64,000 nt of DNA from Candidatus Woesearchaeota archaeon (GTDB taxonomy: Archaea > Nanobdellota > Nanobdellia > SCGC-AAA011-G17 > JAGVXY01): positions 1,643 to 65,642 of the forward strand of contig JAGVXY010000010.1 of the NCBI GenBank assembly GCA_018303545.1, read 5' to 3'. Shown here piece by piece: positions 28,743 to 29,706 of the stretch. Under the pieces are notes generated by a model, which worked only from the letters and a program-made list of their open reading frames with translations, made no database searches and was not told the DNA's origin. The first letter of the stretch is position 1, and each line of letters begins with the position of its first letter. The position numbers were made by a program, and so were the translations under genes.

Positions 28743-28845
28743 CGCGCCGGTAGTATAATGGCTAGAGTTTGTGCGTTAAAACACACAAGCGGCTTAAATT
28801 TCGGCCTTCCAAGTCGGAGATCCGGGTTCGACCCCCGGCCGGCGC
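28743..28845 (+). tRNA. tRNA gene, probably tRNA-Gly(UCC), 103 nt with a ~31-nt non-canonical insertion (putative intron) between the D region and the anticodon stem
   Basis: Acceptor GCGCCGG/CCGGCGC with discriminator A. T-arm CCGGG-TTCGACC-CCCGG. Anticodon arm TCGGC-CTTCCAA-GTCGG gives anticodon UCC. The D-arm cannot be folded canonically by hand. Confidence 0.7.
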
Positions 28846-28850
28846 ATATT

Positions 28851-29186
28851 TTAGTAATTAAATCTTTTATTGTATTCTTTGTGGCTTAGCCATTCCAATA
28901 CAATTGAAACAATTAAAATTTCCTGATTTTCTATAGAATAGATTAGTCTCCAAGCATTTGGAAGATTATATTTCCACAGGTTGTAGATACCATATTTTTT
29001 TATATATTCCTTCGGAATCAATCTTTTTGGTATTTGTATACCACAGAATGCATCTTTTTCTAAACATTCAAAAGCTTTGATTAAATGGGCATATAACTCT
29101 TTTTCAGATCCTTTGCTCTTTTCCAATTCTCCAAAAGCCATTTTCAATTTTTCATTTGCAAATCTTACTTTTGAGGGCAATTCCAT
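28851..29186 (-). CDS. RelE/ParE-superfamily toxin-like protein
   Basis: C-terminal NLWKYNLPNAWRLIYSIENQEILIVSIVLEWLSHKEY matches the RelE pattern LWrLRvGdYRiiYeI..e...vyIL.igHRKdvY. Confidence 0.55.
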   Translation of the reverse strand: MELPSKVRFANEKLKMAFGELEKSKGSEKELYAHLIKAFECLEKDAFCGIQIPKRLIPKEYIKKYGIYNLWKYNLPNAWRLIYSIENQEILIVSIVLEWLSHKEYNKRFNY

Positions 29187-29234
29187 TAGAAAGTATTTAA
29201 TGAAATAATTATTAAAACTCTTCGTGCGCGTTTG

Positions 29235-29519
29235 TCAAGTGGGTCTCCAAAATAAATATCTTTTGGACGAAACTTCTGTCTCATTTTTCGGATAAAATAT
29301 CCATCCAATTTTTCTTTCAGAATCGATAGATATTTTTCTTGAATACAACAAGTAGTCAATAATCAGGCAATAAGTCTGATACATCATTTTCTTGGGTAAT
29401 TTTTCCCATAATGCTTTCTTCTTGAATTCTCCGTCGTTTTTTTGTATAAATTTTTCAACCATTAATATAGTATCCAATCTAGGAAAACGTAATACTTTTT
29501 CTCCTTTCGTTGTTTGCAT
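29235..29519 (-). CDS. Putative cognate antitoxin (94 aa) upstream of the RelE-like gene
   Basis: Position and size only. No recognised fold. Confidence 0.3.
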   Translation of the reverse strand: MQTTKGEKVLRFPRLDTILMVEKFIQKNDGEFKKKALWEKLPKKMMYQTYCLIIDYLLYSRKISIDSERKIGWIFYPKNETEVSSKRYLFWRPT

Positions 29520-29573
29520 AGTTATATCCGTTGATACAACTAAGAATATTTAAACCTTTCGGCAGAAGTACTA

Positions 29574-29699
29574 TCATTAACCAAAAAGATTAAATACATT
29601 TATTCTTATCATTCCAGACAAAATGACGGAACTAATATACCTCAATGACTCTTATTTAAAAGAGTTTGATGCCAAAGTTTTAAAGGTCGAAGGAAAATT
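29574..29699. repeat. Left copy of a 126-bp direct repeat (1 mismatch versus 36919..37044)
   Basis: Direct alignment by eye: tcattaaccaaaaagattaaatacatttattcttatcattccagacaaaatgacggaaCtaatatacctc...ggaaaatt. Confidence 0.9.
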
Positions 29700-29706
29700 T
29701 GTATAA
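29623..29706 (+). pseudogene. Truncated duplicate of the 5' end of the alaX-like gene (27 codons, then a stop)
   Basis: MTELIYLNDSYLKEFDAKVLKVEGKFV* is identical over 25 aa to the start of ORF 36968..37669. Confidence 0.6.

What the first reader, a model, noticed from the sequence alone, without database searches (positions are those of the whole stretch)
28743..29706. Integration-hotspot architecture: tRNA gene, RelE-type TA pair and a truncated duplicate of the alaX 5' end at the island border
- Within 1 kb lie a tRNA gene, a minus-strand antitoxin-like/RelE-like pair and the left 126-bp repeat.
- The left repeat carries a 27-codon remnant (MTELIYLNDSYLKEFDAKVLKVEGKFV*) of the gene whose intact start lies at 36968.
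- Site-specific integration that reconstitutes the target gene's 5' end, together with addiction modules, is typical of integrative elements.
- No integrase is present, so the element may be a remnant or mobilised in trans.
Basis: partly seen in the sequence, partly recalled or inferred. Interest (0 to 1): 0.55.

Follow-up and report, generated by a model that had tools for sequence, protein, structure and literature searches.

The report
Integrase-less gene island beside alaX
The flagged stretch is the left edge of a 7.2-kb foreign gene island, present in some strains of a groundwater DPANN archaeon and absent in others, that is flanked by a 126-bp duplicate of the start of the alaX gene and has no integrase; the neighbouring tRNA and toxin-antitoxin genes are real but are not part of it.

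Summary
There is an intron-containing tRNA-Gly(UCC), a conserved antitoxin-like/YoeB-RelE-fold gene pair, and a 126-bp direct repeat (one mismatch). The repeat copies the alaX promoter and first 25 codons, leaving a 27-codon stub at the left border.

A contig from the same population joins the toxin-antitoxin (TA) pair directly to alaX with a single repeat copy. The seven enclosed genes have clearly lower GC3 than the rest of the window, so they were acquired. No recombinase was detected in the island or elsewhere in the 64-kb window.

The only relative of the island (61-82% protein identity, another DPANN genome) lies between diverged copies of a different small gene. Its contig ends imply a coexisting empty site, joined within a 19-bp core.

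My reading is an integrase-less island inserted by one reciprocal crossover that keeps the target gene intact and is mobilised in trans. The tRNA and TA pair lie outside the repeats and stay in the empty allele, so "integration hotspot" and "addiction module of the element" are not supported.

The cargo is the more unusual part: MccD-, MccE-N- and MccF-like genes plus a ProRS-derived synthetase paralogue.

The parts
28744..28846 (+). tRNA-Gly(UCC) gene with a ~34-nt insertion (presumed non-canonical intron) in the D-loop. It is a chromosomal neighbour, not part of the island.
   Evidence: Rfam RF00005 45.9 bits, model positions 1-71. Missed by ARAGORN. Present in the empty allele L004. No repeat of its 3' end nearby.
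28851..29186 (-). 111-aa toxin of the RelE/ParE superfamily, closest to YoeB. Lies outside the island.
   Evidence: More than 1,500 homologues in DPANN archaea, several named Txe/YoeB or RelE by their sources. AlphaFold2 model pLDDT 81.5. The top 28 Foldseek PDB matches are all RelE/ParE-superfamily toxins (27 solved, plus one uncharacterised structure), best YoeB 7bwf with target-normalised TM 0.71. Weak profile hits to TIGR02385, PF05016 and PF06769.
29235..29519 (-). 94-aa antitoxin-like partner gene with no family assignment, upstream of the toxin. Lies outside the island.
   Evidence: 64-67% identical full-length partners sit directly upstream of the toxin homologue in L095 and L096, with 4-nt overlaps. 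A more distant pair occurs in L055. No Pfam or NCBIfam hit.
29574..29702 (+). Left direct repeat (attL-like): the alaX core promoter region plus codons 1-26, ending in the 27-codon stub ORF 29623-29706.
   Evidence: Carries C at 29632 in all filled contigs.
29703..36918 (-). Island body, 7,216 bp: seven co-oriented genes with no recombinase.
   Evidence: Absent from L004. GC3 is 0.224 against 0.297 +/- 0.033 for the other 42 ORFs, Mann-Whitney p = 1.5e-6. Pfam and NCBIfam assignments.
29823..30359 (-). dCTP-deaminase-fold protein 1. The catalytic Glu is replaced by Gln (ITFQL).
   Evidence: PF22769 E 5e-37. Alignment to M. tuberculosis Dcd 2qxx, and Gln conserved in the L011 orthologue.
30356..30877 (-). 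dCTP-deaminase-fold protein 2. The catalytic Glu is kept (TLEL).
   Evidence: PF22769 E 2e-29. Alignment.
30861..31682 (-). MccD-like class I SAM-dependent transferase.
   Evidence: The listed top plasmid-database hits are the methyltransferase gene next to the MccE-type GNAT gene; the two loci inspected are mcc operons. 28% identity over 261 aa, end to end, E 5e-31 against E. coli MccD.
31657..32763 (-). MccF-like S66 serine peptidase.
   Evidence: PF02016 and PF17676. 309 bits to PDB 5f9m (B. anthracis Ba3275) and 91 bits to E. coli MccF 3tla. 28% identity over 351 aa to plasmid MccF.
32816..34396 (-). B12-binding radical SAM enzyme (PhpK-like). It is absent from the related island L011.
   Evidence: PF04055, and TIGR04479 at 141.7 bits, below its cut-off. 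L011 gene table.
34397..35620 (-). Fold-type III PLP-dependent decarboxylase (Orn/DAP family), the same class as the MccE N-terminal domain.
   Evidence: PF02784 and PF00278. 23% identity over 382 aa to MccE, E 1e-12.
35635..36687 (-). 350-aa ProRS-derived class II synthetase paralogue, the first gene of the operon.
   Evidence: NCBIfam ProRS models E 1e-20, far below cut-off. PDB ProRS hits E 2e-10 over residues 25-178. Only one other homologue among 5.8 billion proteins.
36919..37047 (+). Right direct repeat (attR-like): the promoter and 5' end of the intact alaX gene.
   Evidence: The Logan contig L101 ends exactly 30 nt (k-1) into it, at 36948.
36968..37669 (+). Intact alaX (AlaX-M type trans-editing protein), the target gene.
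   Evidence: NF040865 301.9 bits. PF01411 and PF07973.

Best explanation
The flagged stretch is the left border of a 7.2-kb genomic island in a groundwater Woesearchaeota (DPANN) genome. The island was acquired horizontally and is present in some strains and absent in others. It holds seven co-oriented biosynthetic genes and no recombinase.

The island lies between two 126-bp direct repeats. Each repeat holds the alaX promoter region and the first 25 codons of alaX. The left copy is a dead 27-codon stub. The right copy heads the intact gene.

This layout is what one reciprocal (Campbell-type) crossover produces when a circular copy of the island carrying this alaX segment recombines with the chromosomal alaX. 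The target gene keeps its promoter and reading frame, and recombination between the two repeats would restore the empty site.

Because the island encodes no integrase, the crossover must be catalysed in trans. I favour the host's own recombination functions acting on the repeat, as proposed for the integrase-less microcin H47 island of E. coli, over an unlinked dedicated integrase.

The tRNA-Gly gene and the YoeB/RelE-type toxin-antitoxin pair are genuine chromosomal neighbours and not components of the island.

Shown: the repeats, the stub, the empty allele, the foreign composition, the absence of a recognisable recombinase, and the same layout at another gene for the island's only relative. 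Inferred: the circular intermediate, the direction of individual events, and which enzyme acts.
For: 1. The repeat is exact except for one SNP and occurs only twice in the window.

2. Empty allele: L004 (Logan SRR3989309) consists of the left flank, one repeat copy and the rest of alaX, and its flanks are 99.9% identical to the window. AlaX was found on 9 contigs, 2 of them of the empty type. Logan contigs do break at this repeat when the island is present: L101 stops 30 nt, which is k-1, into it. A contig that runs straight through the repeat therefore reflects a real island-free allele.

3. Island genes have lower GC3 (0.224 against 0.297, p = 1.5e-6). The first gene of the island has a single homologue in 5.8 billion proteins.

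4. No integrase, transposase or recombinase family appears in the island or among the ORFs of at least 120 aa in the window.

5. The related island L011 has the same genes minus the radical SAM enzyme, at 61-82% protein identity. It lies between a copy of a 70-aa gene X whose 3' end and stop codon are visible and a decayed X remnant that lacks the 5' end. Both ends of that contig are exactly k-1 = 30 nt built around a shared 19-nt core. Those are the unitig limits expected if an empty-site hybrid coexists in the sample.

6. Apart from the operon promoter, the two islands share no terminal sequence.

7. Precedent: the H47 genomic island is integrase-less, is flanked by imperfect direct repeats, and excises and integrates without RecA or any of the 16 K-12 site-specific recombinases (PMC3191183, PMC5426353).
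Against: No circular junction (attP) was observed, and reads could not be searched. Only 64 kb of the genome was seen, so an integrase elsewhere cannot be excluded.

A crossover confined to a 19-bp core inside diverged repeats (L011) is also the classic signature of a tyrosine recombinase.

The single SNP between the repeat copies cannot tell whether the left copy is part host and part element, or simply carries a later mutation.

The empty allele may be purely ancestral, in which case ongoing excision is not shown.

The L011 argument rests on one 5.7-kb contig and on the assumption that Logan contigs are k=31 unitig-based. That assumption comes from my own knowledge, and the L101 break point is consistent with it.
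Confidence: 0.55

Rival explanations
1. The island is a satellite of a dedicated site-specific recombinase encoded elsewhere in the genome or on a helper element. The 126-bp repeats are attL and attR, and the element-borne part of the att site supplies a replacement 5' end for alaX. In L011 it would supply a replacement 3' end for gene X.
For: The target gene end is reconstituted at both loci. In L011 the junction switches within a 19-bp identical core flanked by diverged sequence, with an element-borne alternative C-terminus TRGKIKDVFKA*. About 20 nt of weak extra similarity lie at the left edge of the repeat, p about 0.015, as seen when attP arms are captured host sequence.
Against: No recombinase was found in the island or among the ORFs scanned across the 64-kb window. 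The two islands use unrelated targets and share no end sequences, so a single integrase/att pair does not explain both. 126 bp of near-identity is far more than a recombinase core needs.
Confidence: 0.2
2. The island arose in a one-off illegitimate or homology-facilitated insertion of linear foreign DNA. One end was anchored by homology in the alaX region and the other was joined non-homologously at codon 26, duplicating 126 bp of the recipient's own sequence. The island is not mobile, and the empty allele is simply the ancestral state still segregating in the population.
For: The right edge of the repeat is sharp, while the left edge decays over about 20 nt. The right copy is identical to the empty allele over all 126 nt. 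The island has foreign composition, and no mobility genes were found.
Against: The same flanking architecture recurs at a different gene for the related island, with an inferred coexisting empty site. That would be an unlikely coincidence for two independent accidents. The left copy, which this model derives wholly from the recipient, carries a base (C at 29632) not seen in the empty allele, although this could be a later mutation.
Confidence: 0.15
3. The island is ancestral to this lineage and the repeat is an old local duplication. The empty allele is a recent deletion by recombination between the repeats, and no insertion ever took place in this species.
For: Recombination between direct repeats would give exactly the L004 sequence, with one repeat copy carrying the T allele.
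Against: Island GC3 is significantly lower than that of the rest of the window. The ProRS-like gene is found only in this species and one other contig. A truncated alaX stub next to the island is not expected unless the island arrived by an insertion event. The two repeat copies differ at only 1 of 126 positions, so the duplication is young.
Confidence: 0.06
4. The repeat, the island junctions or the empty site are assembly artefacts.
For: Several contigs break inside the repeat (L003, L100, L101).
Against: Two independent assemblies made with different assemblers, plus the window itself, carry both repeat copies with the same SNP. Breaks at the repeat are the expected behaviour for a true repeat. 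The empty-type contig was found twice.
Confidence: 0.02

Closest known systems
Microcin H47 genomic island of Escherichia coli (PMC3191183, PMC5426353)
   Same: A small chromosomal island for an antimicrobial product, flanked by extensive direct repeats and with no integrase or excisionase gene inside. It is present or absent between strains, and recombination occurs within segments of identity between the repeats.
   Different: It is bacterial, about 13 kb, and its repeats are imperfect. Excision and integration were shown experimentally there and are only inferred here. In the present case the repeat is a functional gene start (promoter plus 25 codons), so the target gene is reconstituted.
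Integrative prophage-like elements that rebuild a protein-coding target, such as e14 and phage 21 in E. coli icd (own knowledge)
   Same: The element is flanked by a duplicate of part of a protein gene more than 100 bp long. One copy keeps the gene intact and the other is a stub. An alternative gene end is supplied by the element, as is clear in L011.
   Different: Those elements encode their own tyrosine integrase next to attP and duplicate the 3' end of the gene. Here no integrase was found, and in this window the 5' end plus the promoter is duplicated.
Archaeal integrative elements with pNOB8-type or SSV-type integrases (own knowledge)
   Same: An archaeal host, with direct repeats at the borders of a strain-variable insert.
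   Different: Those elements target tRNA genes and carry an integrase, which is split on integration in the SSV type. Here the adjacent tRNA-Gly gene is untouched and no integrase or integrase fragment is seen.
mcc (microcin C) operon of E. coli plasmids: MccA-F (PMC4010828)
   Same: The cargo holds full-length MccD-like, MccE-N-terminal-like (PLP decarboxylase) and MccF-like (S66 peptidase) genes. In E. coli these are the aminopropyl-decoration and self-immunity functions.
   Different: There is no MccB (ThiF-type adenylyltransferase), no MccC exporter and no conserved MccA peptide gene. Instead there are a ProRS-derived class II synthetase paralogue, two dCTP-deaminase-fold proteins and, in this window only, a B12-dependent radical SAM enzyme.
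YefM-YoeB / RelBE type II toxin-antitoxin modules
   Same: A two-gene operon with a small upstream partner. The toxin has the RelE/ParE fold, closest to YoeB, and invariant Arg80, His102 and Tyr105.
   Different: The upstream partner matches no known antitoxin family. In this window the two genes are separated by 48 nt rather than overlapping. Activity is untested.

Membership tests
Self-encoded integrative element (tyrosine/serine recombinase genomic island or provirus) | Direct repeats (attL/attR) at both borders | tested here: met
   126 nt with 1 mismatch, at 29574-29699 and 36919-37044
Self-encoded integrative element (tyrosine/serine recombinase genomic island or provirus) | Empty site (attB) with a single repeat copy in related strains | tested here: met
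   L004, with a second similar contig not shown
Self-encoded integrative element (tyrosine/serine recombinase genomic island or provirus) | Integrase/recombinase gene inside the element | tested here: not met
   All seven genes are assigned to other families, and no space is left for another gene. None was found elsewhere in the window either.
Self-encoded integrative element (tyrosine/serine recombinase genomic island or provirus) | Excised circular form (attP junction) | not testable with these tools
   Raw reads cannot be searched, and the stub ORF (27 aa) is below the 30-aa limit of the exact-protein look-up.
Integrase-less direct-repeat-flanked genomic island (H47 type) | Extensive direct repeats, no recombinase gene inside, and variable presence between strains | tested here: met
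   definition from PMC3191183
Integrase-less direct-repeat-flanked genomic island (H47 type) | Demonstrated excision and re-integration that does not depend on an element-encoded enzyme | not testable with these tools
   Only the population polymorphism is seen, plus an inferred hybrid junction for the related island.
Type II toxin-antitoxin module, RelE/YoeB type | Toxin with the RelE/ParE-superfamily fold | tested here: met
   AlphaFold2 pLDDT 81.5; Foldseek top hits are YoeB, RelK, ParE, HigB2 and YafQ, with target-normalised TM up to 0.72. Sequence profiles are only marginal, E 0.01-0.05.
Type II toxin-antitoxin module, RelE/YoeB type | Small partner gene directly upstream in the same operon, with the pairing conserved across genomes | tested here: met
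   Pairs in L055, L095 and L096
Type II toxin-antitoxin module, RelE/YoeB type | Toxicity, and neutralisation by the partner | not testable with these tools
   Requires an experiment.
   The pair lies outside the repeats and is present unchanged in the empty allele L004.
tRNA gene used as an integration target | A genuine tRNA gene | tested here: met
   RF00005 45.9 bits, above the gathering score of 29, over the full model; anticodon UCC. ARAGORN is negative, presumably because of the ~34-nt insertion.
tRNA gene used as an integration target | A duplicate of the tRNA 3' end at the far border of an insert | tested here: not met
   No such repeat in 28600-29800 or in 26000-40000.
Microcin C-type (mcc) biosynthetic cluster | MccB, a ThiF-family adenylyltransferase | tested here: not met
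   No ThiF-family hit among the island proteins. A ProRS-like paralogue is present instead.
Microcin C-type (mcc) biosynthetic cluster | MccA precursor peptide ending in Asn | tested here: inconclusive
   A 22-codon ORF ending in Asn lies at 36764-36832 (-), upstream of the operon, but it is not conserved in L011.
Microcin C-type (mcc) biosynthetic cluster | MccD plus the MccE N-terminal domain (aminopropylation pair), and the MccF immunity peptidase | tested here: met
   MccD-like 28% identity end to end, E 5e-31. MccE-N-like 23% identity, E 1e-12, which is generic for this fold. MccF-like 28% identity, E 4e-28, and 309 bits to PDB 5f9m.
Microcin C-type (mcc) biosynthetic cluster | Dedicated exporter (MccC) | tested here: not met
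   No transporter gene in the island.
AlaX-M trans-editing protein (the target gene) | Score above the curated NCBIfam equivalog cut-off | tested here: met
   NF040865 301.9 bits against a cut-off of 300

The most novel reading that the evidence does not exclude
The window and contig L011 may represent a small family of integrase-less islands in DPANN archaea. These islands would move as circles generated by recombination between their flanking repeats, and would insert so that the end of the target gene is rebuilt.

Their cargo would be a previously unknown route to an aminoacyl-nucleotide antimetabolite that targets an aminoacyl-tRNA synthetase. In that route a ProRS-derived class II synthetase replaces MccB and the MccA peptide of microcin C. 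MccD-like and PLP-decarboxylase enzymes would add an aminopropyl-type decoration, the dCTP-deaminase-fold proteins and the radical SAM enzyme would tailor the nucleotide, and the MccF-like peptidase would protect the producer. If so, this would be the first microcin C-like chemistry found in archaea.
Probability: 0.2. Interest if true: 0.75.

Novelty: new member of a known kind. Interest (0 to 1): 0.45.

Why it matters
It gives a clean natural example of how a DPANN archaeon with a very small genome gains and loses a whole operon without any element-encoded recombinase and without damaging the target gene. Both alleles, and probably both alleles of a second related island, coexist in the sampled populations, so the mechanism can be tested by read mapping and PCR.

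The cargo is worth a follow-up of its own. It combines microcin C decoration and immunity genes with a synthetase paralogue found in only two places among 5.8 billion proteins.

Tried and rejected
- ARAGORN found no tRNA at the site. I set this result aside as a false negative, because Rfam gives a full-length match with an insertion.

- I looked for homology extending beyond the repeat. Local alignment of the 270-nt left flanks is no better than random. Only the first ~20 nt show a marginal signal, p about 0.015. A tblastn hint that the island side carries a remnant of the 94-aa gene (33% identity over 33 aa with a stop codon, E 0.74 window-wide) is not significant. I dropped the idea of a long diverged duplication.

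- The genome-contig scan with AlaX returned 80 loci. The closest species is only 64% identical and shows no synteny, so it says nothing on whether the empty site is ancestral.

- Two metagenome-contig scans, one with a DNA pattern and one with the ProRS-like alignment, and three viral-contig scans all found nothing.

- I considered whether L011 is a circular element. I rejected this because its ends differ at several positions and the right-hand X copy lacks a start codon and has a frameshift.

- The AlphaFold2 model of the ProRS-like protein, built from two sequences, failed (pLDDT 30), so I did no fold search on it.

- The PADLOC scan gave only generic domain hits, so the island is not a known defence system.

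- The bacterial promoter/terminator scan is uninformative for an archaeon.
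Full report
**What is at the coordinates**

All four elements named in the finding are present.

- A 103-nt tRNA gene lies at 28744-28846 (+). Rfam's tRNA model matches it end to end at 45.9 bits, against a gathering score of 29. The anticodon loop CUUCCAA gives Gly(UCC), and there is a roughly 34-nt insertion in the D-loop, presumably a non-canonical archaeal intron. ARAGORN does not report it. I did not define the intron borders.
- Two minus-strand ORFs follow, of 111 aa (28851-29186) and 94 aa (29235-29519).
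- A direct repeat follows at 29574-29699, matching 36919-37044: 126 nt with one mismatch (C at 29632, T at 36977). It extends to 129 nt with a second mismatch. A 38-nt core occurs exactly twice in the window, with none in 100 shuffles.
- The left copy holds about 50 nt upstream of the ATG. By eye this stretch contains an archaeal BRE/TATA-like AAAAAGATTAAATA. It also holds codons 1-25 of alaX and then runs into a stop, giving the 27-codon stub at 29623-29706.
- The right copy heads the intact alaX gene at 36968-37669, which matches AlaX-M NF040865 at 301.9 bits against a cut-off of 300.

**The organism**

Gene tables for near-identical contigs show an archaeal gene set: GatDE, two FtsZ genes, proteasome, aCPSF1-like nuclease, Spt5, ATP-dependent DNA ligase and deoxyhypusine synthase. 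NCBI names the source Candidatus Woesearchaeota archaeon. Several contigs come from assemblies whose record names point to the Rifle aquifer data set.

**The toxin-antitoxin (TA) pair**

The 111-aa protein has more than 1,500 homologues, mostly in DPANN archaea, and several sources call them Txe/YoeB or RelE. Sequence profiles are only marginal: TIGR02385 E 0.0096, PF05016 E 0.023, PF06769 E 0.048, and PDB YoeB E 0.027.

The fold evidence is stronger. A 22-sequence AlphaFold2 model (pLDDT 81.5) was searched against the PDB. The top 28 matches are all RelE/ParE-superfamily toxins, led by YoeB 7bwf and RelK 3oei with target-normalised TM about 0.7. Arg80, His102 and Tyr105 are invariant in the alignment.

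The 94-aa partner has no family assignment. Full-length partners at 64-67% identity sit directly upstream of the toxin homologue in two other genomes, with 4-nt overlaps, and a more distant pair occurs in a third. Calling this a RelE/YoeB-type TA pair is therefore justified at the level of fold and conserved gene pairing. Activity is untested.

**The island and its empty site**

Seven co-oriented minus-strand genes fill 29703-36918 with no room for another gene.

An exact-protein look-up of AlaX found nine contigs. Seven carry the island. Two, including L004 from Logan run SRR3989309, join the TA pair directly to alaX. L004 consists of the left flank, one repeat copy with the T allele, and the rest of alaX. 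Its flanks are 99.9% identical to the window.

This is not a mis-join. Another Logan contig from an island-bearing sample (L101) stops exactly 30 nt into the right repeat, so that assembler does break at this repeat when both copies are present.

All filled contigs carry the same C (left) and T (right) pair.

The island genes have lower GC (0.307 against 0.345) and lower GC3 (0.224 against 0.297 +/- 0.033; Mann-Whitney p = 1.5e-6) than the other 42 ORFs of the window. The island is therefore an acquired presence/absence unit bounded by the repeats.

**No recombinase**

None of the seven island proteins matches a recombinase family. The gene tables and extra Pfam scans that cover the ORFs of at least 120 aa in the 64-kb window show no integrase or transposase. 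Some window ORFs have no family assignment at all, so this is absence of a recognisable recombinase and not proof that none exists. There is no duplicate of the tRNA 3' end.

The tRNA and the TA pair lie outside the repeats and are kept in the empty allele. They are neighbours of the island, not parts of it.

**A second island**

The first island gene, a 350-aa ProRS-like paralogue, has a single homologue among 5.8 billion clustered proteins (61% identity). That homologue lies on L011 (Logan SRR29054613, 5,727 bp), which carries the same operon without the radical SAM gene. Its proteins are 61-82% identical to those of the window.

L011 begins inside the last 22 codons of a small gene X (...REVQFGIEKMTRGKIKDVFKA*). 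It ends inside a second, decayed copy of X that lacks the first codons and has a frameshift (...DFLLDGHRRLKVAFDKKIGWKALAMIPDREVRFGIEKMQKG). X is a 70-aa gene in a Nanoarchaeota MAG.

The first 30 nt of L011 are 11 nt followed by a 19-nt core, GTTTGGAATAGAGAAGATG. The last 30 nt are the same core followed by 11 nt. Thirty is k-1 for a k=31 de Bruijn assembly, which I take Logan to be on my own knowledge. Those are exactly the unitig limits expected if the sample also holds the hybrid made of the left 11 nt, the core and the right 11 nt. That hybrid would be an empty site of X. An attP-type hybrid would give different limits.

The related island therefore appears to have three properties:
- it sits in a different gene;
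- it rebuilds that gene's 3' end with an element-borne alternative C-terminus;
- it coexists with its empty site.

Outside the conserved operon promoter (AAAAAGCGAAAG.TTTATAAA) the two islands share no terminal sequence.

**Mechanism**

The topology has native upstream DNA, a repeat, the island, a repeat and then the native remainder of the gene. One reciprocal crossover between a circle carrying the repeat segment and the chromosome produces exactly this. It is shared by integrase-mediated and homology-mediated (Campbell-type) integration.

I favour catalysis in trans by host recombination functions for four reasons:
- no recombinase gene is present;
- 126 bp of near-identity is ample for homologous exchange;
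- the two islands have unrelated targets and no common ends;
- an integrase-less island with exactly this behaviour is documented in E. coli (H47 island; PMC3191183, PMC5426353).

An unlinked integrase remains a serious rival, because of the 19-bp core in L011. So does a one-off insertion anchored by homology at one end and joined non-homologously at the other, because of the sharp right edge and fuzzy left edge of the repeat. The data cannot separate these three. Reads spanning an attP junction would be decisive.

**Cargo**

- The methyltransferase-fold protein aligns end to end with E. coli MccD (28% identity, E 5e-31). Its listed top hits among 72,556 plasmids are the methyltransferase gene next to the MccE-type GNAT gene, and the two loci I inspected are mcc operons.
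- The S66 peptidase is MccF-like: 28% identity to MccF, and 309 bits to B. anthracis Ba3275, PDB 5f9m.
- The PLP decarboxylase aligns with the MccE N-terminal domain at 23% identity, E 1e-12, which is generic for this fold.
- In E. coli, MccD and the MccE N-terminal domain add the aminopropyl group to microcin C, and MccF confers self-immunity (PMC4010828).
- There is no MccB, no MccC and no conserved MccA.
- In their place are the ProRS-like paralogue (class II motifs visible; PDB ProRS E 2e-10), two dCTP-deaminase-fold proteins and a B12-dependent radical SAM enzyme. One of the two deaminase-fold proteins has the catalytic Glu replaced by Gln in both islands.

My inference, untested, is that the island makes and resists an aminoacyl-nucleotide-type antimetabolite. 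It is not a member of the mcc family as defined, because MccB was tested for and is absent. PADLOC shows no known defence system.

**Verdict**

This is an insertion unit that rebuilds its target gene and lacks an integrase. The tRNA, the TA pair and the "hotspot" label do not belong to it.

As a border architecture it is a new archaeal member of a known kind. The cargo and the recurrence at a second gene make it moderately interesting.

Noticed in passing
window 29823-36687 (-): The island operon combines MccD-like, MccE-N-terminal-like and MccF-like genes with a ProRS-derived class II synthetase paralogue, two dCTP-deaminase-fold genes and a B12-dependent radical SAM gene. It has no MccB, MccC or conserved MccA. 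It may encode an aminoacyl-nucleotide antimetabolite pathway together with self-immunity, in an archaeon.
   Followed up: partly
window 29823-30359 (-) and L011 4989-5534: The first dCTP-deaminase-fold protein has Gln in place of the catalytic Glu (ITFQL against ITLEL in M. tuberculosis Dcd). The change is conserved in both islands. The adjacent paralogue keeps the Glu. One of the pair is probably not a deaminase.
   Followed up: partly
window 36764-36832 (-): A 22-codon ORF (MFWFSSDKFIFENDGKFAIYCN*) ending in Asn lies about 75 nt upstream of the ProRS-like gene and is preceded by a purine-rich stretch, GAAGGGG. It recalls MccA-type peptides, but it is not conserved in L011 and may be chance in AT-rich DNA.
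   Followed up: partly
window 28744-28846 (+): tRNA-Gly(UCC) carries a ~34-nt insertion in the D-loop region, a non-canonical intron position, and is invisible to ARAGORN. I did not determine the intron borders or a bulge-helix-bulge motif.
   Followed up: partly
window 29187-29234: The antitoxin-like and toxin genes are separated by 48 nt here, including a GC-rich GACAAACGCGCACGAAGAG. In the homologous pairs in L095 and L096 the two genes overlap by 4 nt, although the proteins have the same lengths. This looks like a small insertion between the genes.
   Followed up: no
L055 9992-11374: In another Woesearchaeota MAG (SI073_bin58) a homologous antitoxin-like/toxin pair lies 7 nt downstream of that genome's alaX. 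This is the only one of the 80 alaX loci in which a pair was detected nearby. It may be coincidence, or a recurrent association of this TA family with alaX.
   Followed up: no
L011 4485-4989: The orthologue of the second dCTP-deaminase-fold gene in the related island is split over two reading frames. It is either a frameshift or a sequencing error.
   Followed up: no
window 56872-59262: The second tRNA gene of the window (tRNA-Arg CCU, 58225-58300, -) is flanked by two ORFs of 448 and 262 aa that have no Pfam hit at E <= 0.1. I did not examine them further. They are conserved in all strain contigs seen.
   Followed up: no
window 3867-11153 (+): A four-gene run of PrkA-like AAA kinase, DUF444, SpoVR and a second PrkA-domain protein. 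This is the bacterial YeaG/YeaH/YcgB-type stress module, here in a DPANN archaeon.
   Followed up: no
L094 8536-8954: Gene X, the target of the related island, is a 70-aa protein with a DGHRR motif. In a Nanoarchaeota MAG it is preceded by a 69-aa gene that overlaps it by 4 nt. The arrangement looks like another small two-gene (TA-like) cassette.
   Followed up: no
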